Shown here one piece after another: positions 3-11,389 of a stretch of 22,340 nucleotides of DNA. Position 1 is the stretch's first letter. Each line of letters opens with the position of its first letter. The notes beneath the pieces are model-generated. The model searched no databases, was not told where the DNA came from, and saw nothing but the letters and a program-made list of their open reading frames with translations. The stretch is from positions 1-22,340 of the forward strand of contig CAYHBD010000003.1 of assembly GCA_964354805.1 (NCBI GenBank), in the 5' to 3' direction. This stretch comes from an uncultured archaeon (lineage in GTDB: Archaea > Iainarchaeota > Iainarchaeia > Iainarchaeales > GCA-2688035). A program made the position numbers and the translations under genes.

Positions 3-569
3 GCCCATGCAAAGGCGGTTGCTGAGCAATTCGGCATTCCATTCAAGGTCATTGATTTGGCTGAAACCTTTGGCATGATTTCTTCCGCCCTGGAAAAGGC
101 TGCAGAAGGCAATGATGGCATGGAAAAGCTTGCTCTTGCAAACATCAAGCCGAGGCTGAGAATGGTCAGCCTTTACTACTTTGCAAACAAACTGAATTAT
201 TTGGTTGTTGGAACAGATAATAAAACAGAGGAAATGGTGGGTTACTTCACCAAATTCGGCGATGGCGGAGTTGACATCCTGCCTATAGCGGACTTATTCA
301 AGCGCGATGTAAGGAAGCTTGCATTGCATCTCGGCGTACCAAAAGAAATAATTGAAAAGCCTCCAACAGCAGGCCTTTGGCCAGGCCAGACTGATGAAGG
401 GGAAATGGGCATAACATACGAACAGCTTGATGGGCTGCTCGAAAAAATTGAAAAAAAGAAAACAGTTGGCTGTGACCAAAAACTGCTTGAAAAAGTGAAA
501 GCAATGATTCGAAATTCAGAGCATAAGAGGCAGCTTGCCCCTGTATGCAAAATTGGAGATGATAACTGA
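3..569 (+). CDS. nadE: NH3-dependent NAD+ synthetase, 5'-truncated by the window edge
   Basis: The frame is open from position 3 (AHAKAVAEQFGIPFKVID...). It has the NadE motifs NIKPRLRM, GTDNKTE, GYFTKFGDGG and KPPTAGLWPGQTDE. The stop overlaps the next start (TGATG). Confidence 0.93.
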   Translation, partial: AHAKAVAEQFGIPFKVIDLAETFGMISSALEKAAEGNDGMEKLALANIKPRLRMVSLYYFANKLNYLVVGTDNKTEEMVGYFTKFGDGGVDILPIADLFKRDVRKLALHLGVPKEIIEKPPTAGLWPGQTDEGEMGITYEQLDGLLEKIEKKKTVGCDQKLLEKVKAMIRNSEHKRQLAPVCKIGDDN

Positions 570-1527: not shown

Positions 1528-2643
1528 ATGAAACTGATTGGATTAAAACGGCCGACGATTACGCAACGAGATTTTTTTCAGGTAAAAGCTGGGCTTGAGC
1601 GAATGCGGGATTCTAAGGGGGGAGTAGTTGCAGAATTCGAGAAAAGTTTCAGGCGTTTCGTTGGCGCAAAAGAATGTTTTGCAGTAAACAGCGGCACAAA
1701 TGCTCTTTACCTTGCATTAAAGTGTCTCGGCTTAAAAAGAAGCGATGAGGTCATACTGCCAAGCTACACCTGCATTTCACTGTATTATGCAATAAAACAT
1801 GCCGGCGCTGTGCCTGTGTTGGTTGACAACAGTTTTGATGTAAAATGCATGGATTTCAATATGTCAATTGACAGTATCATGGAAAAATTGTCCAGCAAAA
1901 CAAAGGCGGTTATTGTGCCGCATATGTTTGGTGTGTGCAGTCAGATTGAAGAAATAATGAAGGAGACAGGGCTGCCAGTGATTGAAGACTCTGCCCAGGC
2001 TTTTGGGGCTGTTACTGCCAAGGGCAACAAGGCTGGCAGTGTTGGCGACCTGGCTGTTTTTTCTTTTAACGGAAAAATGATTACAACAGGCGAAGGTGGC
2101 ATGGTTTGTGTCAATAATAAAGATTTTGTGCAAAAAATGGTTGAAGTGAGCGGCAGTGATTTTGAGACAGATTTGTGGGCTCTGCGGACTGAACGAGACA
2201 TGCGCAAAATAAGGCGGCATTTTCTGCCAGCGCCTTTGAATAACAGCATGAGCGATTTGCAGGCTGGGCTCGGCATTGCCCAGCTTGGGCAGTTAAGGGG
2301 GTTCATTAAAAAAAGAAAAGCGATTGCCAAAAGTTACGCTGAAGGGCTTTCATTGCAGGGTGAAGCCAAGCCAGTGGTGAGAAGCGATTCCCTTAATGTT
2401 TTCTACAGGTTCATTGTAAGCGTTGGCCCTGATGCAGGCTCTGTTGTCGCAAAATTAAAGCGCAATGCTGTTGATGCAGGCAGGGGCTGCTATCCGCCAA
2501 TTCATTACTTCCTGGGGGCAAGCGCTGCTTTTCCAATGGCTGAAAAATGCGTTGGTTCGCTTCTCTCCATTCCAATATACCCTAAACTAAGTGATCCGCA
2601 AATTGAATACATTATCAAGATATGCAACAGGGTGATTGTATGA
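1528..2643 (+). CDS. DegT/DnrJ/EryC1/StrS family PLP-dependent sugar aminotransferase
   Basis: NSGTNAL, IEDSAQAFG, FSFNGKMITTGEGG (PLP lysine), C-terminal LSIPIYP. Confidence 0.92.
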   Translation: MKLIGLKRPTITQRDFFQVKAGLERMRDSKGGVVAEFEKSFRRFVGAKECFAVNSGTNALYLALKCLGLKRSDEVILPSYTCISLYYAIKHAGAVPVLVDNSFDVKCMDFNMSIDSIMEKLSSKTKAVIVPHMFGVCSQIEEIMKETGLPVIEDSAQAFGAVTAKGNKAGSVGDLAVFSFNGKMITTGEGGMVCVNNKDFVQKMVEVSGSDFETDLWALRTERDMRKIRRHFLPAPLNNSMSDLQAGLGIAQLGQLRGFIKKRKAIAKSYAEGLSLQGEAKPVVRSDSLNVFYRFIVSVGPDAGSVVAKLKRNAVDAGRGCYPPIHYFLGASAAFPMAEKCVGSLLSIPIYPKLSDPQIEYIIKICNRVIV

Positions 2644-3368
2644 AAATCGGCGCGATTGTGCAGGCAAGGGTTGGCAGCAGCAGGCTGCGTGGCAAGGTTT
2701 TGATGCGGATAAACGGCAAGACAATGCTGCAGATAATAATAGAAAAGCTTAAGAAAATCGCTGCTTTGGATGAAATAGTTATTGCAACGACAACGGGAAA
2801 AGAGGATAGGGCGATTGAGAAAATCGCGTTGCAGAACAAGGTGCATTGCTTCATGGGCAGCGAGGCAAATGTTTTGCAGAGGTTTGCGCAAGCAGCGGAA
2901 AAACATGGCCTTGATGTCATTGTCAGGGTCAGCGCTGACGACCCGCTTATTTCAACTCAAATAATTAAATCAAATTTAAAAAAATTTTTGCAATTCAAGA
3001 ACTTGGACTATTTTTTTGTCAGGGGTTTTCCAAGGGGTTTTGGCTCGGCGGAGATAGTGTCAACGAAAGCACTGGTTAAAGCAAATCAATTGGCTTATTC
3101 AAAGCGGGACAAGGAGCATGTGGTGACATTTATTGTAGATAACCCGGAATTGTTTAATGTTAGAATAGAAAAAGCCCCCCAAAATGCGATGAGACCGGAT
3201 TTAAGGGTTACAATTGACACAAAGGCAGATTTAGTGGCTGTTGAGAAAATCTGCGCTGGCCTTGGCACAACAGATATAAAAGCAGAGCGGTTGATAGGTT
3301 TTTTAGAAAAACATCCAGCGATAGCCGGCGTAAATAAAGGCGTGAAGCAGAAAAACGCAGAATACTGA
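2640..3368 (+). CDS. SpsF/PseF-like cytidylyltransferase (acylneuraminate-CT family)
   Basis: IVQARVGSSRLRGKVL, GSEANVLQRF, VRVSADDP, EHV and RVTIDT motifs. Start placed at ATG 2640, which has a GGTGA RBS and an ATGA overlap with the upstream stop. Confidence 0.88.
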   Translation: MKIGAIVQARVGSSRLRGKVLMRINGKTMLQIIIEKLKKIAALDEIVIATTTGKEDRAIEKIALQNKVHCFMGSEANVLQRFAQAAEKHGLDVIVRVSADDPLISTQIIKSNLKKFLQFKNLDYFFVRGFPRGFGSAEIVSTKALVKANQLAYSKRDKEHVVTFIVDNPELFNVRIEKAPQNAMRPDLRVTIDTKADLVAVEKICAGLGTTDIKAERLIGFLEKHPAIAGVNKGVKQKNAEY

Positions 3369-3419
3369 TGCAGGCTGCTGTGATAAAGCCAATGGGTTTT
3401 GTTTTATCCGGGTGAAAAA

Positions 3420-4058
3420 ATGGGTTATGCAGGCAAGTTGTTGCGTTTGCCTAGAACAGTTTCATTCAACCTCTACTGCCTGTATAAAAAGCACGCAAGC
3501 GGTTTCAACGCCATAGAGAACTTATACAACAGTGCTCTGCCGGCTGGCTACTATCTTTTGGAAGCAATTGCCTTGTTTGAGCTGGCTAAAAAAGCAAAGC
3601 ACCCCATAGTTGAGCTCGGCTCTTATGCTGGAAACGGCGCTGTTGTTTTGGCTGAAGGCAGCGCAAGGGGAAACAAGCAGCTGGTTTACAGCATTGACCC
3701 GCATACTGCCCTTAAAGTAGACAATCATTTATATCCTGACACAAAACAGTTATTTCAGTTGAATATCTTGAAAACAAGATACGCATATCTGATAAAGCCG
3801 ATTTACCTTTTTTCTTTCGAAGCAATAGAAGCCTTCAAAGAAAAAATCGGGCTGCTTTCCATTGACACATCCATTGACAGTGTCAGCAGGGATTTTATTC
3901 AATGGGCGCCCTTGGTTGTAAAAGGCGGGGTGATTACAATGCGCGATTACAGGATAAAAAAAATAGCCGACTTCATAAAAGAAAAGATTTTAACTGACCC
4001 AGATTATGCTGATGGGGGCCTTGTCCAGAACATGCAGATAATTTTGAAAAATAGGTGA
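3420..4058 (+). CDS. Class I SAM-dependent methyltransferase (Methyltransf_24-like)
   Basis: VELGSYAG motif I, YSIDPH, W-x-P-LVVKGG. Start placed at ATG 3420 after GGTGA (3411-3415). Confidence 0.8.
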   Translation: MGYAGKLLRLPRTVSFNLYCLYKKHASGFNAIENLYNSALPAGYYLLEAIALFELAKKAKHPIVELGSYAGNGAVVLAEGSARGNKQLVYSIDPHTALKVDNHLYPDTKQLFQLNILKTRYAYLIKPIYLFSFEAIEAFKEKIGLLSIDTSIDSVSRDFIQWAPLVVKGGVITMRDYRIKKIADFIKEKILTDPDYADGGLVQNMQIILKNR

Positions 4059-4138
4059 TTGTGAGATGAGGGGTTTGCCCCGCACAGCAATAGCAGAAAA
4101 TCGAATGCCTGTGGATGTGATTGTGGGATGAATGGTTT
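4055..4138 (+). repeat. Diverged direct repeat of the junction/initiation region (period 62 bp)
   Basis: gtgattgtgagatgaggggttt (4055-4076) versus gtgattgtgggatgaatggttt (4117-4138); 19/22 identical. Confidence 0.8.
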
Positions 4139-4829
4139 TATCTGCCAACCGCTTTACCTGCCCTGGATGGGATACTTTGAGATGATTGGCGCAACAGATG
4201 TTTTTGTTGTGTTTGACCATGTTCAATTCGAGAAAAAGACTTGGCAGCAAAGAAACAGGATAAAGACAGCCCAGGGCCAGTTGTGGCTGACTGTGCCGGT
4301 GCAAAAAACACCGAGAGGCACAAGGATTTGCGACGTAAAAATTTCTTATGCTGGAGGCAACTCTTTGTTAAAGCATTGGGAGACAATTTGCTGGAATTAC
4401 AAGAAAGCCCAGTTCTTTGATGAATACAAGGGCCACTTTGAGCAAGTGTTCAATAAAAAGTTTGATCTGCTGCGTGACCTGAATGTTGAGTTGATTAAAG
4501 TGATTTGCGGCATCCTCGGCGTAAAAACAAAAATAGTTTACAGCAGCGAGCTTGGCCTGAATGATGCTGCCCTCGGCAAGACCGAGAGGGTTGTGAATTT
4601 ATGCGAGATTGCATCCATAGATTTCCTTTACGATGGCTTGTCTGCAAAAGACTTTTTGCAGCTTGATTTATTTGAAAGCAAGGGAATAAAGATTCAGTTC
4701 CAGCAATACAATCACCCAAAATACAATCAGTTATACGGCGAATTTGTCCCTTATTTAAGCATAGTTGACTTGATTTTCAACGAAGGCGAAAAAAGCCTTG
4801 AAATAGTGAATAGCGGTAGGGTTGCGTAA
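4128..4829 (+). CDS. WbqC family protein
   Basis: QPLYLPWMGYF, FVVFDHVQF...WQQRNRIKT, WLTVPV, Y-x-Q...FVPYLSIVDLIFNEG are typical of WbqC. Confidence 0.9.
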   Translation: MNGFICQPLYLPWMGYFEMIGATDVFVVFDHVQFEKKTWQQRNRIKTAQGQLWLTVPVQKTPRGTRICDVKISYAGGNSLLKHWETICWNYKKAQFFDEYKGHFEQVFNKKFDLLRDLNVELIKVICGILGVKTKIVYSSELGLNDAALGKTERVVNLCEIASIDFLYDGLSAKDFLQLDLFESKGIKIQFQQYNHPKYNQLYGEFVPYLSIVDLIFNEGEKSLEIVNSGRVA

Positions 4830-5713: not shown

Positions 5714-7306
5714 TTAAAGTATTTTTCCGCAGAAGCCGTATTTTCGCTTGAATACCGCAAGCCCTTTTTTGATTTTTTCTCTATCGCAAGTCATGTTCCT
5801 GCCGTGCTTTAAATAATTGTACAGCGGTTTTGCTACATGCTTGCCTTTGAATTTTTTCATTACCCTCAGCAATAAATCGTATTCTTCAAAGAAAGGCAGC
5901 TTTTCGTCATAAACTTTTCCATTTACGGCAACTTGCATCAGAACATTTCTTCTGAACATTATATTGCATGCGAGGGTTTTAAACAAATTGAATTTTTTCA
6001 GGGAAACAATGCGTTTCACGCCTTTTTTTATCAGCCTGATGTCGCAGTAAACAAAGCCCAGGCGCGCGTCCTTGTCCAATTCAGCAGCCATTTGCTGCAA
6101 TGTTTCCGGCTCGAACCAGTCGTCTGCATCAAGCTTCATTACGTATTCGCCTTTTGCTTTCTTTAAGCCAAAATTTGACCCTGCTGTCGAGCCGCTGTTT
6201 TTTATTTTATAAACCTTGATTTTTTTGGAAAATTTGCGCAAAATCTCTTGCGTATTGTCTGTTGAACCATCGTCAACAACAATTATTTCAATCAAATTTA
6301 ACGGCATTGTCTGGCTTAAAGCGCTTTCAACAGCCTTTTCAATAAACCTGCCGTAGTTGTATGTTACGATTAACACAGTTACCTTTGGTTTAAACTTTTT
6401 TCCACGCAAGCCACCGGCAATGTCGTCAAAGCGGATTATTTTTTTAGGCAGGGCGCATGTTGCGCTTATCCTCTTGTTTGAAAGCTGGCACACCCTGATG
6501 TTGCCTGCAACGCTGATCAACATCACGGCGTCCTCCAAAGAAAAACCAAATTTTTTAATCAAAAATCCAGCCATGTCTGATGTGGCAATTTTTGCAGCTT
6601 CTTCAAGCGTGTCAGCAACAGCCAAAGCCATAAAGTTTTCCTTTGTTTCAATGCATGGCCTGTCCAAGCTCAGACCCTTCAAAACGCTTGCCTTGATTTT
6701 CACCATGGCGTTGCATTCGATGCCGCTGCCGCATACTTCGCCGTTGCCTTGCAGGGCATGCGCGTCTCCAACAGCTAAGCCAGCACCTTTCACAAAAACC
6801 GGGAAATAAACAGTTGAACCGCTTTTTATGTCAGTGCAGTCAACGTTGCCGCCTGCCAGCAACAAAGGCCTTCCAACCCTGTTGTCTTCATCGCCTGGCA
6901 TGACAGCAATGTTTCCAATCATCGGCTGCTGTTTTAATGAAATTTTTTCACTGAACTGGATTTTTTCCCCCTTTAAGTCAAAGAATTTTGTTTTATCAAC
7001 CATTTTTTCACCAAGAACGCCACTGCCTTTGTGGGTTGTGGCAATGCCCGGTGATTTTGTTTTAATGTCCAGAATCTCCACTTTCAGCACGTTGCCGGGC
7101 TCGGCTCCGCTGACTGCTATCGGGCCAGTGCAAAGCATTTCCTCCACATCGGCAACTTCTTCGATTGTTATTGATTCGTCAGTTATCTTGTTGTTGAAGC
7201 AATCAAGTGTTTCAACCAAAAAGGTTTCGCCGCTTTTCACCCTAAAATTCATTTTATTGCCGGGCTTGAACCGCCTGATTACCTTCACTGCCCCGATTCT
7301 TTTCAT
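5714..7306 (-). CDS. Fusion of an N-terminal acetamidase/formamidase (FmdA/AmdA) domain and a C-terminal GT2 glycosyltransferase domain
   Basis: About aa 1-295: ETLDC, TGPIAVSGAEPG, GGNVD, GDAHALQGNGEVCG. About aa 305-530: VLIVTYNY, VVDDGSTD, KLDADD (DxD). Single uninterrupted 530-aa frame; ATGA overlap with the neuB stop. Confidence 0.85.
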   Translation of the reverse strand: MKRIGAVKVIRRFKPGNKMNFRVKSGETFLVETLDCFNNKITDESITIEEVADVEEMLCTGPIAVSGAEPGNVLKVEILDIKTKSPGIATTHKGSGVLGEKMVDKTKFFDLKGEKIQFSEKISLKQQPMIGNIAVMPGDEDNRVGRPLLLAGGNVDCTDIKSGSTVYFPVFVKGAGLAVGDAHALQGNGEVCGSGIECNAMVKIKASVLKGLSLDRPCIETKENFMALAVADTLEEAAKIATSDMAGFLIKKFGFSLEDAVMLISVAGNIRVCQLSNKRISATCALPKKIIRFDDIAGGLRGKKFKPKVTVLIVTYNYGRFIEKAVESALSQTMPLNLIEIIVVDDGSTDNTQEILRKFSKKIKVYKIKNSGSTAGSNFGLKKAKGEYVMKLDADDWFEPETLQQMAAELDKDARLGFVYCDIRLIKKGVKRIVSLKKFNLFKTLACNIMFRRNVLMQVAVNGKVYDEKLPFFEEYDLLLRVMKKFKGKHVAKPLYNYLKHGRNMTCDREKIKKGLAVFKRKYGFCGKIL

Positions 7307-8322
7307 TTTTCCCCACCGATTTCATTCCATGTGATTGGCTTTCCCTTCGCAATGTTTCTCTTTGCCCTGCGTCCAACCGCTTTTTTTATTTCATCCGCTT
7401 TTATTCCAGCGCACGGCCTTTTCAGTTGCATGTTGCTGAAAGAAATTTTTTCGCCTTTTGCTATGCTGATTGCTGCAAACGCGCCCCTTCTTGAAAGGGT
7501 TATTTCTTTTTTTGGTTCAACTTGAAATATCCTGCTGCTGCCAAGCGCTGCAGCAGCGGTTCTTATGTTTTCAATGATTTTCTTTAATTCTTTTTCTGTT
7601 GCTGACATGCCGTTGTCCGGCCCAGGCAGTTTTTTGTCAATTGTAAAGTGCCTTTCAACCATTTTTGCTCCGCCTGCAACGGCAATTGCAGGCACTATTG
7701 CATCGGTTGAATGATCGCTTAACCCGACAACTGCGTTGAATTTTTCTCCAAGTGTTAAAATCCTTTTTAAGTTAAGCTCATTTATTTTTGCAGGATAGGT
7801 TGCATTGCAGTGCAGTAAAATAATTTTTTTGTTTCCAGCCGAATGCACTGCTTCAATTGCCTTTTTTATTTCCCCTGCTGTTGCCATCCCTGCCGATAAA
7901 ATGATCGGCTTTCTTTTTTTCGCGGCATAGGCAATCAGTGGCAGGTTGGTCAGGTCGCCTGATGCGATCTTGAAGCATGGCACGCCGGTTCTTTCCATTG
8001 CATCCGCTGATTCAAAATCAAAAACCGAGGCAAAAAAACCAATTTTGTTTTTGTCAGAGAATTTTTTCAGCAGGCTGAATTGCTTTTCGCTGAATTCGGT
8101 TTTTTTGAACTTTTTAAACGCATCAGGCTGCAAGCGTTTGCTTATGAATTCGCCTGTTTTATATGCCTGAAATTTTACTGCATCCGCCCCGGCGCGCTTT
8201 GCCGCCAAAATCATTTTTTTGGCAAGCGAAATACTGCCGTTATGGTTGTTCCCTATCTCTGCAACAACATAGCATGGAAAATTGCCGCCAATTCGCCTGC
8301 CGCCGATTTTTATTGCTTTCAT
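7303..8322 (-). CDS. N-acetylneuraminate/nonulosonate synthase family protein (NeuB/PseI/LegI/SpsE) with C-terminal SAF domain
   Basis: AEIGNNHNG, ADAVKFQ, FKIASGD, LLHC..YP, GLSDHS, ERHFT; SAF-like RRG...KRP..GI tail. Confidence 0.93.
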   Translation of the reverse strand: MKAIKIGGRRIGGNFPCYVVAEIGNNHNGSISLAKKMILAAKRAGADAVKFQAYKTGEFISKRLQPDAFKKFKKTEFSEKQFSLLKKFSDKNKIGFFASVFDFESADAMERTGVPCFKIASGDLTNLPLIAYAAKKRKPIILSAGMATAGEIKKAIEAVHSAGNKKIILLHCNATYPAKINELNLKRILTLGEKFNAVVGLSDHSTDAIVPAIAVAGGAKMVERHFTIDKKLPGPDNGMSATEKELKKIIENIRTAAAALGSSRIFQVEPKKEITLSRRGAFAAISIAKGEKISFSNMQLKRPCAGIKADEIKKAVGRRAKRNIAKGKPITWNEIGGEK

Positions 8323-8339: not shown

Positions 8340-8448
8340 GTTTTTTTCAACAATCTTAATTGGTACCGCCCGTTTTTTTTCAACAATCTTAATTGGCATT
8401 ATCCGCTGCCGGAATCAACTTTTTTTATTTTTTTCAACAATCGCAATC
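8340..8448 (-). repeat. Three-copy direct repeat echoing the aminotransferase 3' end
   Basis: tttttttcaacaatcttaattgg occurs exactly at 8341-8363 and 8374-8396. tttttttcaacaatc occurs again at 8428-8442 inside the gene end. Confidence 0.9.
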
Positions 8449-9584
8449 ACGTTGTCTATCACATAATCTGTTTCCGCTTTGCTCATTGTCGGATACAATG
8501 GCAGTGAAACAATTCTTTCAAATGCAAACTCGCTGTTCGGGAAATCTCCCCTGTTGAAGCCAAACCTGCTTTTGTAGTAGGGGTGGAAATGGATCGGGAT
8601 AAAATTCACGCTGGCTGCAATGCCGGCTTTCTTCAATTGCTCAATGAATTGGTTTCTGTCAATTTTCATGTTTTCAACATCCAGCAATATCGCATACAGG
8701 TGCCAGGCGTGTTTTACGTTTTCTTTAACCTCAGGCACCGCTATTCCTTCAATTGCACCAAATGCCTTGCTATACCTGCCAGCAATTTTTTCCCTCATCA
8801 AAATGCTTTTATCCAGTTTATCCATTTGCCTTAATCCAATTGAGGCAAGCACGTCGCTCATGTTGTATTTAAACCCGAGTTGTGTTACCTCGTAATACCA
8901 GCTGCCGGCGCCGTAATACCTTTTCCATGCGTCCTTTTTTATGCCGCAGTATCTCAGGCACCTCAATTGTTCAGCTGCTGCATCGCTGTCAGTTACAACT
9001 GCCCCGCCTTCTCCAGTTGTTATATTCTTTATGGGATAAAATGAAAAACACCCATACTTTCCAAGAGTTCCGCATTTTTTGCCTTTATACTCCGCGCCCA
9101 ATGCATGCGCAGCATCCTCTACAACAGCCAGCCCGTGCTTTTCAGCAATCTCGTTTATTTCATCCATACTGCAGCTCTGGCCGCCGTAGTGGACCGGAAT
9201 TATTGCCTTTGTTTTTTTTGAAATCTTTTTCTTTATCTCGGCAGGCGATATGTTAAATGTTTCACTGTCAATATCAGCGAGAACAGGCTTCGCCCCCTGG
9301 AATAAAATAACATTCACTGTCGAGCAGAAAGTGAACGGCGTTGTTATGACCTCGTCTCCAGCTCCAATGCCTTCCGCTGCCAGGGAAATGTGCAGAGCAG
9401 CAGTGCAGCTATCCACCACAATTGCATGCTTGACGCTGTTGTAGTCAGCAAGCTTTTTCTCAAAGGCCTCGCATTTTGGCCCGGTGGTAAGCCAGCCGCT
9501 TTGCAGGGTGTCGATTACCTCATTTATTTCCTCTTTTCCAATCCACGGTTTGCTGAAAGGAATATTCATTTTTTTCTCAGGCAT
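8415..9584 (-). CDS. DegT/DnrJ family aminotransferase (PseC/SpsC/ArnB-like)
   Basis: SGWLTTGP, VEDAAHALG, FSFYPIKNITTGEGG, GFKYNMSD, LPLYP. Start placed at ATG 9584 after AGGTG; ATG 9569 is an alternative. Confidence 0.92.
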   Translation of the reverse strand: MPEKKMNIPFSKPWIGKEEINEVIDTLQSGWLTTGPKCEAFEKKLADYNSVKHAIVVDSCTAALHISLAAEGIGAGDEVITTPFTFCSTVNVILFQGAKPVLADIDSETFNISPAEIKKKISKKTKAIIPVHYGGQSCSMDEINEIAEKHGLAVVEDAAHALGAEYKGKKCGTLGKYGCFSFYPIKNITTGEGGAVVTDSDAAAEQLRCLRYCGIKKDAWKRYYGAGSWYYEVTQLGFKYNMSDVLASIGLRQMDKLDKSILMREKIAGRYSKAFGAIEGIAVPEVKENVKHAWHLYAILLDVENMKIDRNQFIEQLKKAGIAASVNFIPIHFHPYYKSRFGFNRGDFPNSEFAFERIVSLPLYPTMSKAETDYVIDNVIAIVEKNKKS

Positions 9585-9612
9585 ATTCAACACCTTTTCA
9601 ATAATGTGTTTT

Positions 9613-9652: not shown

Positions 9653-11389
9653 TCACAGCATTGACTTTATAAGGGCAATTGCCCTTTCAGTAGCTTTTCC
9701 GTCCTGTTTGAAGGCAATTTCAACAATGAACTTTTCAGCCCTTAGCATAAGCTCTCTCCTTTCTTTGCAATCGCCCAATACTATGCCGAGCGCTTTTCCA
9801 AGCTCAGCTGCATCCCTTGCCCGCAACACGCTGTCGGTTGAATAGTAAACGCTGTCCAAAGGCTGCCTTTCACCGAACACTATCACAGGCTTGTGCAGCG
9901 TAATTGCCTCCAAGCCGACTGTCGATGTCTGGGTTATTACAGCGTCTGCCGCGTCAAGCAAATCATTCAGGTTGTAGCCAGGAATATTCTGCACAACTAT
10001 GCATTTGTTGCCGACAATGCTTTCATAGCTTTCGATATCGTCAGTAGGATGAACCTTCAGCAAAAGTTTTGCCTTCGGCGCTTTTTCAAAAGCATCCAGC
10101 AATTGCCCGACTTTTGCCTTGTCAAACGAAAGCTGTGGCGCAAACAGCACAAGTTTTTCTTCAGGACCACGAGCAAATTTTTTTCTCAATTCTTTGCCAT
10201 GCAATTCCTTTTTTTGAATGAGGTCAAGCTTCGGCGAGCCTGTTACAACAACCATTTGCTCCGGCACCCTGTGCCCAACCAATGTTTTTTTCGCCTGCTC
10301 TCCCCACACTGCAATGGCATCAGCTGTGAGCGGGGCAAAGGACCTCACCCAGTCCCCGCCAATGATTTCTTTCATTGCGCCATGCTGCAATACAATGCTT
10401 TTTGCCTTGTTTTGCCTGGCCAGCAGCACGCAGATTCTCTCAAAAGGCACAGAGTCAACCCAAACAACCAGCAGCCTGGGTTTTGCCGAACGGAATTCCC
10501 TTGACAGAATGTCAATAAGGAAAACAAATTCTGGCCAGTCCCTTTCCACTATTTCAGGGAAATGCCGCTTCAGCATTCTGCTGAAATCCATGCCCTCAAA
10601 AACAAGTTTTTCATTGAATGCCCTGCTTTCCTCCAACTCGTGGAAGGTGAGCTTAAAGCGCTTCTGCATCACTGCCCTTGTAGAGAAGTAGCGCGCTGCA
10701 TTCCACGGCAGCAGTATTTTTTTCAGCAGGAATTCATCCAATGAAACCACGTTAAGCATTGGCTCTTTCTGCAAATCTTTCCTCAGGTTTCCAAGGTACC
10801 CAAGGTCCCTTATGAAAACGGTTTTTTTGCCTTCCCCGCTTCTTTTAAATGACAGCGCTTCAGGCAGCAATGAGCGCAGCTTTGCGATTTTTTTCTTGAT
10901 GTTCTTTTTCGCAAAGTTTGGGAAAAGCAGGAAGCCGTGCCTTGCATTCAAATCGCAGAACAAAACATTGCCTATGCTCTTTGCTTTTGCAACAGCTTTC
11001 ACAGCTTCGCCTGCAAAAGATTTGCCGTCAACAATTATTGCTGCTGGCTTTTCCTTTTCAATTGCTGCTGCTATTGACTTCAGGAGAAAAAAAGTTGTCC
11101 TGAAGAAATAGTACAATTCGTTTTCATGCACAAAACCAAGGTTAATGCCGTTAAAAGTTGAGCTTTGCTCAAATTGCCTGTCAAACCTGTACCAGTTTCT
11201 GGCAAAGAAGCTTGCCCTTTCCTCCACCTCTTTGATGTCATCTGAGCTCAGGAAATCCTCTGGCGCGCGCCTGATGCTCTGCTGCCGCATTACGATAAGC
11301 TCGTCGCCTTTTGCAAGCTTTTCAGCTTTCAGGCTTTCCAAAGCAGGCAGCTCTGCATCGCTTGAAACAACAGCCAGGAATTTCTTCAT
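9653..11389 (-). CDS. GT-B-fold capsule/surface polysaccharide protein, candidate CMP-nonulosonate or CDP-polyol transferase
   Basis: The C-terminal half has LQHG, AVWGE, VTGSPKLD, LKVHP and TSTVGLEA..LHKPVI, as seen in capsule-synthesis/TagF-like and epimerase-2-like GT-B proteins. It lies next to the aminotransferase and neuB. Confidence 0.65.
   Translation of the reverse strand: MKKFLAVVSSDAELPALESLKAEKLAKGDELIVMRQQSIRRAPEDFLSSDDIKEVEERASFFARNWYRFDRQFEQSSTFNGINLGFVHENELYYFFRTTFFLLKSIAAAIEKEKPAAIIVDGKSFAGEAVKAVAKAKSIGNVLFCDLNARHGFLLFPNFAKKNIKKKIAKLRSLLPEALSFKRSGEGKKTVFIRDLGYLGNLRKDLQKEPMLNVVSLDEFLLKKILLPWNAARYFSTRAVMQKRFKLTFHELEESRAFNEKLVFEGMDFSRMLKRHFPEIVERDWPEFVFLIDILSREFRSAKPRLLVVWVDSVPFERICVLLARQNKAKSIVLQHGAMKEIIGGDWVRSFAPLTADAIAVWGEQAKKTLVGHRVPEQMVVVTGSPKLDLIQKKELHGKELRKKFARGPEEKLVLFAPQLSFDKAKVGQLLDAFEKAPKAKLLLKVHPTDDIESYESIVGNKCIVVQNIPGYNLNDLLDAADAVITQTSTVGLEAITLHKPVIVFGERQPLDSVYYSTDSVLRARDAAELGKALGIVLGDCKERRELMLRAEKFIVEIAFKQDGKATERAIALIKSML

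What the first reader, a model, noticed from the sequence alone, without database searches (positions are those of the whole stretch)
5714..7306. Acetamidase/formamidase domain fused to a GT2 glycosyltransferase, coupled to a nonulosonate synthase
Seen: a full-length FmdA/AmdA domain and a full GT2 domain in one frame, overlapping neuB by ATGA. The usual GDGE and EPGD motifs read GNGE and EPGN. Established: this amidase family is known from small-amide catabolism, not glycan synthesis, and I do not know of a described fusion with GT2. Inference: a bifunctional enzyme that transfers a sugar and removes or exchanges its N-acyl (acetyl/formyl) group, exposing an amine for WbqC or a methyltransferase. 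This would be a new glycan de-N-acylase class.
Basis: partly seen in the sequence, partly recalled or inferred. Interest (0 to 1): 0.72.

Follow-up and report, generated by a model that had tools for sequence, protein, structure and literature searches.

The report
One-off amidase–glycosyltransferase fusion, archaeal sugar locus
A tiny uncultured (DPANN, Iainarchaeum-like) archaeon encodes one protein that joins an intact formamidase/acetamidase-type amidase to a glycosyltransferase inside a sialic-acid-like sugar operon; the join is real in the assembly but found nowhere else, so a sugar de-N-acylating role is a reasonable but unproven idea.

Summary
ORF 5714-7306(-) encodes 530 aa: a complete FmdA_AmdA domain (aa 1-~298) joined by a ~9-residue linker to a complete GT2 domain (aa ~308-530). 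It starts in an ATGA overlap with neuB.

Both domains look functional. AF2 gives pLDDT 95 and 93, all seven invariant FmdA residues are kept, and the GT2 DDGS/DADD motifs are kept.

The fusion is a singleton. No other protein among 1.84 billion cluster representatives carries both domains. FmdA occurs in 2 of 196 genomes of the order. None of 80 genomic loci of the closest FmdA homologues has NeuB, DegT, a cytidylyltransferase or WbqC within 10 kb; they sit beside permeases, ABC transporters and regulators.

The GT2 module belongs to a nonulosonate-linked clade. Its members are repeatedly fused N-terminally to sugar-tailoring enzymes: a CMP-sugar synthetase, NeuB plus synthetase, or an ArnA-like formyltransferase.

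Best reading (about 0.4): a GT2 coupled to an amidase retargeted to a sugar N-formyl or N-acetyl group.

Rivals are a neutral young fusion of an imported small-amide amidase, a mis-assembled stop, or a non-catalytic domain. The read check was not possible.

The parts
5714..7306 (-). Whole FmdA-GT2 ORF (530 aa plus TAA stop at 5714-5716)
6413..7306 (-). FmdA_AmdA (acetamidase/formamidase) domain, aa 1 to about 298, short 300-aa subtype
   Evidence: Pfam 1.9e-33. PDB 3tkk 4e-56 and 2ii1 8e-54. AF2 pLDDT 95.2, pTM 0.93. Foldseek TM 0.93-0.94, rmsd 1.4 A. Invariants G61, P62, G131, N154, D156, D181, E190 are kept.
7091..7093 (-). Codon 72: Asn where 92% of homologues have Asp (PGD to PGN)
6743..6745 (-). 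Codon 188: Asn where 91% of homologues have Asp (GDGE to GNGE). It co-varies with position 72.
6854..6856 (-). Codon 151: Ala before the GGN(M/L)D motif, where 136 of 140 homologues have an aromatic residue (W/H/Y/F) and none has Ala. A possible pocket-opening change (inference).
6386..6412 (-). Very short linker, aa 299-307 (GLRGKKFKP). It contains a TTG (codon 300, 6407-6409) and an A6 run (6396-6401). Standalone GT2 relatives start at this very point.
5717..6385 (-). GT2 (GT-A fold) glycosyltransferase domain, aa 308-530, soluble, with no membrane segment seen
   Evidence: Pfam 1.7e-31. PDB K4CP and 6p61 about 1e-30. AF2 pLDDT 93.3. Foldseek 6p61, SpsA, K4CP.
6119..6130 (-). DADD (DXD-type) motif, aa 393-396, invariant in the GT2 alignment
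7303..8322 (-). neuB-type nonulosonate synthase (NeuB + SAF). Its stop overlaps the FmdA-GT2 start (ATGA). GGTGGGG RBS at 7311-7317.
8415..9593 (-). PseC/LegC-like DegT aminotransferase, upstream in the same operon
9653..11389 (-). 578-aa protein with a C-terminal KpsS / 'BFO_1060 family' / surface-carbohydrate domain. Candidate nonulosonate transferase (inference).
2622..3368 (+). Separate CTP_transf_3 cytidylyltransferase, 40% identical to the N-terminal domain that relatives carry fused to this GT2
4128..4829 (+). WbqC-like protein, part of the DegT / cytidylyltransferase / WbqC / GT2 module that is also seen beside the closest standalone GT2 (L029)

Best explanation
The ORF encodes a real two-domain enzyme of a nonulosonate (legionaminic/pseudaminic-type) glycan pathway in a DPANN archaeon.

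The C-terminal domain is an ordinary soluble inverting GT-A (GT2) transferase. It belongs to a clade that travels with neuB, DegT, cytidylyltransferase and WbqC genes.

The N-terminal domain is a horizontally acquired member of the short acetamidase/formamidase family. It has kept its catalytic core but changed several otherwise conserved positions: D72N, D188N, aromatic151A and M155V.

Inferred mechanism: the amidase hydrolyses a small N-acyl group (formyl or acetyl) on the amino sugar that the GT2 domain handles. This frees an amine on the substrate or product, as in the protect, transfer, deprotect logic of ArnA/ArnC/ArnD.

Shown: the anatomy, the intactness of both domains, the operon position, and the clade's habit of fusing to sugar-tailoring enzymes.

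Inferred: any activity, the substrate, the acyl group and the order of steps.
For: 1. There is one open frame with a coupled start. The ATGA overlap with neuB has a GGTGGGG RBS 4 nt upstream.

2. Both domains are complete and confidently folded. Every invariant FmdA residue is present, and so are the GT2 DDGS and DADD motifs.

3. The query differs from consensus at 7 of 50 conserved FmdA columns, against a family median of 1. It is within the range of the 45 closest members (0-12). Ala151 is found in no other homologue. This fits a changed specificity rather than decay.

4. GC and GC3 of the FmdA part match its neighbours, and its nearest relative anywhere is only about 41% identical. The domain is therefore not a fresh import.

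5. In the GT2 tree, the module groups (89/95 support) with a formyltransferase-GT2 fusion and a clade of cytidylyltransferase-GT2 and NeuB-cytidylyltransferase-GT2 fusions. The formyltransferase domain is closest to ArnA among solved structures.

6. N-formylated legionaminic acid, and a predicted formyltransferase in the Leg cluster, are documented in Archaea (PMC6137143).
Against: - The fusion is unique: no second example among 1.84e9 representatives.
- FmdA is present in only 2 of 196 genomes of the order.
- None of 80 loci of the closest homologues carries NeuB, DegT, a cytidylyltransferase, WecB or WbqC within 10 kb.
- All six contexts examined in detail are transport or catabolism.
- The linker is almost nil, as expected for a young or accidental read-through of two adjacent genes.
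- No sugar formyltransferase was found in the 88.5%-complete genome; the only Formyl_trans_N hit is PurN, next to PurH. No NeuD/PglD-type acetyltransferase was found either.
- The family is known for small free amides, and nothing here shows that a sugar fits the pocket.
- The junction could not be checked against reads.
Confidence: 0.4

Rival explanations
1. Neutral or young fusion. A horizontally acquired small-amide amidase gene landed between neuB and the GT2 gene and lost its stop. The amidase still acts on free formamide, acetamide or amino-acid amides (nitrogen scavenging), or does nothing useful. Only the GT2 half matters for the glycan.
For: The fusion is a singleton. The family is nearly absent from the order. 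Homologues sit beside permeases, ABC transporters and GntR regulators, not glycan genes. The two domains abut with hardly any linker, exactly where standalone relatives of each end and begin.
Against: The position inside the operon, with a coupled start and its own RBS, means the domain is made whenever the glycan genes are. The catalytic core is conserved while normally conserved positions have changed. Composition is fully ameliorated and no close donor is known. Streamlined 1.4-Mb genomes rarely keep useless 900-bp inserts (general knowledge).
Confidence: 0.3
2. Assembly or sequencing artefact. Two separate genes (an FmdA of about 300 aa and a GT2 of about 230 aa) were merged by a miscalled base or indel in the 45 nt between codons 292 and 307.
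For: The contig comes from a MAG with no second copy anywhere. The junction has an A6 run (6396-6401) and a TTG at codon 300 that would give a GT2 N-terminus like those of standalone relatives. One-base changes could turn several junction codons (TTG, GGA, AAA, AAG) into stops.
Against: The frame is supported by family-typical residues up to 291 and again from 307 on. An indel in the A6 run would leave the GT2 without a plausible start (and my reading). The GGTGG before the TTG is only 1 nt away, which is poor spacing for an RBS.
Confidence: 0.1
3. Non-catalytic amidase domain. With Asp72 and Asp188 replaced by Asn and the aromatic residue before GGN lost, the domain no longer hydrolyses amides. 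It serves instead as an acetamido- or formamido-sugar binding module, or as an oligomerisation module, for the GT2.
For: There are three changes at positions that are 91-97% conserved or always aromatic. The two Asp positions co-vary across the family, which suggests a shared role.
Against: All invariant residues are kept (N154, D156, D181, E190, plus H183 and E197). Asn at 188 occurs in 9 other natural members and Asn at both sites in P0149. The role of the two Asp residues is not known to me from any source I could read.
Confidence: 0.12
4. Acyl-transfer (transamidation) role. The domain uses free formamide or acetamide to N-acylate the amino sugar. This would replace the acetyl-CoA or formyl-folate dependent acyltransferase that was not found in this genome.
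For: No NeuD/PglD-type acetyltransferase and no sugar formyltransferase were found in the genome. In a sister protein the same position is occupied by a formyltransferase.
Against: This is pure inference and I know of no precedent in this family. The genome is 88.5% complete, and other acyltransferase families (GNAT, WbqC-like) were not excluded.
Confidence: 0.06

Closest known systems
Short (about 300 aa) acetamidase/formamidase family proteins: PDB 3tkk (Thermoanaerobacter), 2ii1 (Bacillus halodurans), 2f4l (Thermotoga TM0119)
   Same: Full-length domain match with 38-41% identity. The model superposes at TM 0.93-0.94 and rmsd 1.4 A. All invariant residues are shared.
   Different: The known proteins are standalone, and their relatives lie in transport or catabolic neighbourhoods. 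Here the domain is fused to a GT2 in a glycan operon and carries D72N, D188N and aromatic151A.
Cytidylyltransferase-GT2 and NeuB-cytidylyltransferase-GT2 fusion proteins of DPANN archaea (P0002, P0360, P0231, P0004, P0361; G001 and G011 of the same family)
   Same: The GT2 module is orthologous (43-54% identity, same clade at 89/95 support). The position directly after neuB and the neighbours (DegT, methyltransferase, B12 radical SAM) are the same.
   Different: The N-terminal partner there is a CMP-sugar synthetase. Here it is an amidase, and the synthetase is a separate gene at 2622-3368. In the tree the window's GT2 pairs with a standalone GT2 (P0214), not with the synthetase-fused clade.
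P0213: formyltransferase-GT2 fusion on a virus-like marine-sediment contig (L020/L021)
   Same: It is the closest GT2 of all (56% identity). It has the same architecture: an N-terminal enzyme that handles a one-carbon acyl group, followed by the GT2.
   Different: A formyltransferase adds formyl, whereas an amidase would remove it. The genomic setting is different (many tiny ORFs, DNA methylases).
ArnA / ArnC / ArnD of the polymyxin-resistance (L-Ara4N) pathway
   Same: The proposed logic matches: an amino sugar is N-formylated, a GT2 transfers it, and a hydrolase then removes the formyl group (established knowledge). ArnA is the best solved match of the P0213 N-domain, and ArnC appears among weak GT2 matches.
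   Different: ArnD is a polysaccharide-deacetylase-type enzyme, not an FmdA fold. ArnC is membrane-bound and transfers to undecaprenyl phosphate, whereas this GT2 is closest to soluble SpsA/K4CP/6p61-type enzymes. This is a resemblance of logic only, not membership.

Membership tests
FmdA_AmdA acetamidase/formamidase family (PF03069) | Profile match above the curated threshold over the whole domain | tested here: met
   116.4 bits against a cut-off of 27. Phmmer to 3tkk gives 4e-56 over residues 10-291.
FmdA_AmdA acetamidase/formamidase family (PF03069) | Family fold | tested here: met
   AF2 model pLDDT 95.2. Foldseek to 2ii1 and 3tkk gives TM 0.93-0.94, rmsd 1.4 A.
FmdA_AmdA acetamidase/formamidase family (PF03069) | Invariant polar core (N154, D156, D181, E190; near-invariant H183, E197) | tested here: met
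   All are present in the query.
FmdA_AmdA acetamidase/formamidase family (PF03069) | Conserved Asp of the PGD and GDGE motifs | tested here: not met
   Both are Asn. Asp is found in 92% and 91% of 140 homologues, but Asn occurs naturally in 4 and 9 of them.
FmdA_AmdA acetamidase/formamidase family (PF03069) | Hydrolysis of formamide, acetamide or another amide; metal content | not testable with these tools
   Needs enzyme assays and metal analysis.
Glycosyltransferase family 2 (PF00535, GT-A fold) | Profile match above threshold and GT-A fold | tested here: met
   109.9 bits against 23.3. AF2 pLDDT 93.3. Foldseek to 6p61, SpsA, K4CP.
Glycosyltransferase family 2 (PF00535, GT-A fold) | Nucleotide-sugar and metal motifs (DDGS, DXD) | tested here: met
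   D346, G347, S348, D350 and D393, D395, D396 are invariant columns and are present.
Glycosyltransferase family 2 (PF00535, GT-A fold) | Donor and acceptor identity | not testable with these tools
   No specific equivalog model is reached; all NCBIfam hits are far below their cut-offs.
Nonulosonate-linked cytidylyltransferase-GT2 fusion clade | GT2 module inside the clade | tested here: met
   ML tree: the clade holding P0213, P0001+P0214 and the synthetase-fused proteins has 89/95 support.
Nonulosonate-linked cytidylyltransferase-GT2 fusion clade | N-terminal CTP_transf_3 domain in the same protein | tested here: not met
   The N-terminal domain is FmdA. CTP_transf_3 is a separate gene at 2622-3368.
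Known sugar de-N-acylases (ArnD/CE4 polysaccharide deacetylases, LpxC, NagA-type amidohydrolases) | Sequence membership in one of those families | tested here: not met
   Pfam and NCBIfam scans of P0001 list only FmdA and GT2 models.

The most novel reading that the evidence does not exclude
The FmdA fold has been recruited as a new kind of glycan-tailoring de-N-acylase, hard-wired to a glycosyltransferase. An archaeal nonulosonate glycan would then be built by a protect, transfer, deprotect route like Arn, exposing a free or re-modifiable amine. This would supply the missing de-N-acylation step needed for N5/N7-variant legionaminic or pseudaminic acids.
Probability: 0.3. Interest if true: 0.7.

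Novelty: new variant of a known kind. Interest (0 to 1): 0.45.

Why it matters
How bacteria and archaea swap the N-acetyl groups of legionaminic- and pseudaminic-type sugars for formyl, acetimidoyl, methyl or free amino groups is poorly understood. No FmdA-fold enzyme is known to act on a sugar.

If this domain de-acylates a sugar, it gives a new function to a family whose solved 300-aa members still lack a known substrate. It would also be a compact two-step tool for glycoengineering.

Independently of that, the survey shows a more robust point. One GT2 clade of DPANN archaea is a module that keeps fusing to whichever sugar-tailoring enzyme lies upstream: a CMP-sugar synthetase, a synthase plus synthetase, a formyltransferase, or an amidase. 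This marks it as a dedicated, uncharacterised transferase of nonulosonate pathways.

Tried and rejected
- **Exact-match scans.** Scans for the 43-nt junction in metagenome contigs and genome contigs found nothing.
- **Complex prediction.** Complex prediction of the FmdA domain against the GT2 domain gave 'no answer' (ipSAE 0.00). I count it neither for nor against.
- **Combined alignment.** A combined full-length alignment (A1) misplaced the FmdA homologues across the GT2 region. I dropped it, folded the two domains separately, and made no full-length model.
- **Wide profile scan.** The search for related loci with the wide alignment A2 failed for lack of conserved stretches. It was repeated with the 12-sequence A4.
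- **Literature.** Searches for the FmdA active site, for any glycan-linked FmdA and for WbqC gave nothing usable. The roles of Asp72 and Asp188 therefore stay unknown to me.
- **Frameshift in the A7 run (6439-6445): rejected.** Both alternative frames stop at once (PKK* or PKKNNPL*), but the residues after the run fit the family pattern.
- **FmdA replaced an ancestral cytidylyltransferase domain: weakened.** In the tree the window's GT2 pairs with a standalone GT2.
- **NadE-like gene at 3-569 as a glycan amidotransferase fed by the amidase: rejected.** It appears to be the genome's single NAD synthetase, split across the ends of contigs C43 and C3.
- **Sugar formyltransferase elsewhere in the genome: rejected.** The only hit is PurN, beside PurH.
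Full report
**What is there**

The window is a whole 22.3-kb contig (C3) of a 1.38-Mb MAG that is 88.5% complete. The organism is an archaeon: ribosomal protein L21e is present and bacterial L21p was not found. All relatives have 0.5-1.5 Mb genomes. A same-order genome is titled Candidatus Iainarchaeum (L056), which agrees with earlier notes that call this genome DPANN/Iainarchaeota.

The contig is one large glycan island, annotated.

Plus strand:
- the 3' part of NAD synthetase
- an SDR epimerase/dehydratase
- a DegT aminotransferase
- a CTP_transf_3 cytidylyltransferase (2622-3368)
- a methyltransferase
- a WbqC-like protein
- a TylF-like methyltransferase

Minus strand, converging on the above:
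- GT4
- GT2
- a LegB-like 4,6-dehydratase
- WecB
- GT4
- a 578-aa protein with a KpsS/'BFO_1060'-type C-terminal domain
- a PseC/LegC-like aminotransferase
- NeuB
- the ORF in question, last in the operon

Further genes on the contig: a Gmd-like dehydratase (plus strand), a GT2, a methyltransferase, a B12 radical SAM enzyme, a second methyltransferase and a partial nucleotidyltransferase.

**The observation**

ORF 5714-7306(-) is a single 530-aa frame. It holds a full FmdA_AmdA domain and a full GT2 domain, both far above Pfam thresholds.

The FmdA part is the short, 300-aa form of the family. It aligns end to end with 3tkk (4e-56) and 2ii1 (8e-54). Its AF2 model has pLDDT 95.2 and pTM 0.93, and it superposes on those structures at TM 0.93-0.94 and rmsd 1.4 A.

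The GT2 part models at pLDDT 93.3. It is closest to soluble GT-A enzymes: a 228-aa Leptospira transferase (6p61), SpsA and chondroitin polymerase K4CP. It keeps every invariant column of its alignment, including DDGS and DADD.

The start codon overlaps the neuB stop (ATGA) and has a GGTGGGG element 4 nt upstream. The gene is therefore translated with the operon.

**The two motif changes**

In an alignment of 140 homologues, position 72 is Asp in 129 and position 188 is Asp in 128. The query has Asn at both.

These are not unique, however. Asn188 occurs in 9 other members and Asn72 in 4. The two positions co-vary: of the nine other homologues that have Asn188, four also lack Asp72. P0149 has both Asn.

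Everything that is truly invariant is kept: G61, P62, G131, N154, D156, D181, E190, plus H183 and E197.

The query departs from consensus at 7 of 50 highly conserved columns. The family median is 1, and the range among the 45 closest members is 0-12. One change is unique: Ala151 sits before the GGN(M/L)D motif, where 136 of 140 homologues have W, H, Y or F and none has Ala.

I could find no readable source on what Asp72 and Asp188 do. I therefore read the pattern only as 'core kept, periphery changed'. It is not evidence of inactivity.

**Is the join real?**

At the junction the other two frames are closed.

There are two A-runs. For the A7 run (6439-6445), a one-base error would end a standalone FmdA at once. 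But the residues that follow in the present frame (Ile290, Ile291) fit the family's C-terminal pattern PK-x-[YLVI]-[LI]. The frame is therefore right at least to residue 291.

From about residue 307 (KP-x-V-[ST]-V) the sequence aligns with the very N-termini of standalone GT2 relatives (M-x-x-KP...).

So a complete amidase is joined to a complete transferase by about nine residues (aa 299-307). This is what a lost stop between adjacent genes looks like.

An error in those 45 nt cannot be excluded. An indel in the A6 run (6396-6401) would leave the GT2 without a credible start. A TTG at codon 300 could act as an internal start, but the GGTGG before it is only 1 nt away. I put an artefact at about 0.1.

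**How common is the fusion?**

It is a singleton.
- The exhaustive HMMER search of 1.84 billion cluster representatives returned nothing above 289 bits apart from the query itself. A protein with both domains at the identities seen for single-domain hits would score about 350 bits or more.
- None of the 358 proteins fetched matches both halves.
- The word-indexed searches of 5.8 billion clusters gave only single-architecture hits. They were run with the whole protein, the amidase half and the GT2 half.
- Very remote fusions scoring under about 165 bits would have been missed.

**Where does the amidase come from?**

The family is nearly absent from this archaeal order. It is found in 2 of 196 genomes. 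The other is a 2.7-kb contig carrying a class-III aminotransferase and a periplasmic binding protein.

The nearest homologues anywhere are only 36-41% identical. They belong mostly to Bacillota, plus a Bathyarchaeota MAG, Fusobacterium, Actinomycetota and Thermotogota.

GC and GC3 of the amidase part equal those of its neighbours. It is thus a horizontal acquisition, but not a recent unaltered one.

**Neighbourhood survey**

I examined six contexts of the closest standalone homologues in detail. They show amino-acid permeases, ABC transporters, GntR regulators, an M20 peptidase, SIS and NagA-like genes, or unrelated genes. None shows glycan synthesis.

I then scanned 80 genomic loci from different species (1.33 Mb, up to 10 kb each side) with the window's own glycan proteins:
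- None has NeuB, either DegT, the cytidylyltransferase, WecB, WbqC or the 578-aa protein.
- Three have some GT2, three a GT4 and one an SDR. All but one of these lie several kb away.

The family as a whole is not a glycan family.

**The transferase half tells a different story**

Its closest relatives are all multi-domain proteins of nonulosonate loci:
- CTP_transf_3-GT2 (P0002 at 54%, P0360 at 51%, P0231, P0003, and G001 of the same family)
- NeuB-SAF-CTP_transf_3-GT2 (P0004, P0361, G011)
- the closest of all, P0213 (56%), which is Formyl_trans_N-GT2

The N-domain of P0213 is best matched among solved structures by the ArnA formyltransferase domain, followed by tRNA and sugar formyltransferases.

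P0002 lies in the order methyltransferase, DegT, NeuB, [synthetase-GT2], B12 radical SAM. This mirrors the window, whose NeuB is 48% identical.

In a maximum-likelihood tree one clade (89/95 support) holds three groups: P0213; the pair P0001 plus standalone P0214 (97/94); and the synthetase-fused proteins (98/97). Neighbouring clades include fusions in the reverse order (GT2-synthetase).

P0214 sits in a DegT / CTP_transf_3 / WbqC / GT2 row. The same genes lie on the window's plus strand, facing the fused ORF. The window's separate cytidylyltransferase is 40% identical, over its whole length, to the N-domain of P0002.

This GT2 is therefore a nonulosonate-pathway module that repeatedly fuses with whatever sugar-tailoring enzyme lies upstream. 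Here that upstream gene happens to be an amidase.

**Interpretation**

By the Rosetta-stone argument, the partners of this module are enzymes acting on the same sugar. One of them handles a formyl group. N-formyl-legionaminic acid, and a predicted formyltransferase in the Leg cluster, are documented in a haloarchaeon (PMC6137143).

The most likely reading (about 0.4) is therefore that the amidase domain removes a formyl or acetyl group from the amino sugar that the GT2 uses or makes. This is analogous in logic to ArnA/ArnC/ArnD.

The points against it are listed in the Best explanation section: the singleton status, the catabolic habit of the family, the almost absent linker, and the failure to find a sugar formyltransferase or a NeuD/PglD-type acetyltransferase in the genome.

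Rivals:
- a neutral young fusion with a small-amide amidase (about 0.3)
- a non-catalytic binding or oligomerisation domain (about 0.12)
- an assembly artefact (about 0.1)
- an acyl-transfer role (about 0.06)

**Verdict**

The architecture is new, but it is built from two known families and is seen only once. I rate it a new variant of a known kind, of moderate interest (0.45). The more general and better supported result is the modular, nonulosonate-linked GT2 clade.

Noticed in passing
L019:1955-4287; L006:802-2181; L007 (G011:C7); P0004, P0361, P0360, P0231: A clade of DPANN proteins fuses a CMP-sugar synthetase (CTP_transf_3) to this GT2, and in two cases NeuB+SAF as well (829 aa, three enzymes in one chain). 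Other clades carry the reverse order (GT2-synthetase). This is an uncharacterised transferase tightly tied to nonulosonate activation.
   Followed up: partly
L020:3086-4411 and L021:4803-6128 (P0213): The closest GT2 relative of all is fused to an ArnA-like formyltransferase. It lies on a marine-sediment contig full of tiny ORFs, DNA methylases, a radical SAM/SPASM gene and further GT2s, which looks viral.
   Followed up: partly
window 1528-4829 (+) and L029:7344-10729: The row DegT, CTP_transf_3, WbqC-like, GT2 is conserved beside the closest standalone GT2 (P0214). The window has the same genes with two methyltransferases inserted and the GT2 inverted. WbqC-like proteins have no known function, and no conventional N-acetyltransferase is in the window.
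   Followed up: partly
window 9653-11389 (-): A 578-aa protein whose C-terminal 150-200 residues match KpsS/Capsule_synth, 'BFO_1060 family glycosyltransferase' and TIGR04396, so it is a candidate nonulosonate transferase. Its N-terminal 330 residues match no Pfam family.
   Followed up: no
window 3-569 (+) and G000:C43:3-230 (-): The NAD synthetase gene is cut by the contig end, and its missing N-terminal part lies at the end of contig C43. C43 and C3 are therefore probably adjacent in the genome. An NAD synthetase also sits next to the synthetase-GT2 gene in the related genome G001 (L006:2229-2972).
   Followed up: partly
whole genome G000: No NeuD/PglD-type sugar N-acetyltransferase (TIGR03570) and no sugar formyltransferase were found; the only Formyl_trans_N is PurN, beside PurH on C40. 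This is despite a nonulosonate pathway that normally needs N-acylation. The genome is 88.5% complete.
   Followed up: partly
L024:1645-12894: One close standalone FmdA homologue (P0128) lies in a sugar-type ABC transporter cluster with SIS-domain, M20 peptidase and NagA-like amidohydrolase genes. This hints that some short FmdA proteins may act on amino-sugar-like amides in catabolism.
   Followed up: no
L008 / L056 (G036:C109, 2670 bp): The only other FmdA gene in the order sits on a 2.7-kb contig with a class-III aminotransferase and a periplasmic binding protein. It could be a binning contaminant rather than an archaeal gene.
   Followed up: no
window 18054-21266 (-) and L019:4344-5873: A B12-binding radical SAM gene accompanies the nonulosonate/GT2 genes both in the window and in the unrelated contig L019. 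This suggests it belongs to the same sugar pathway.
   Followed up: no
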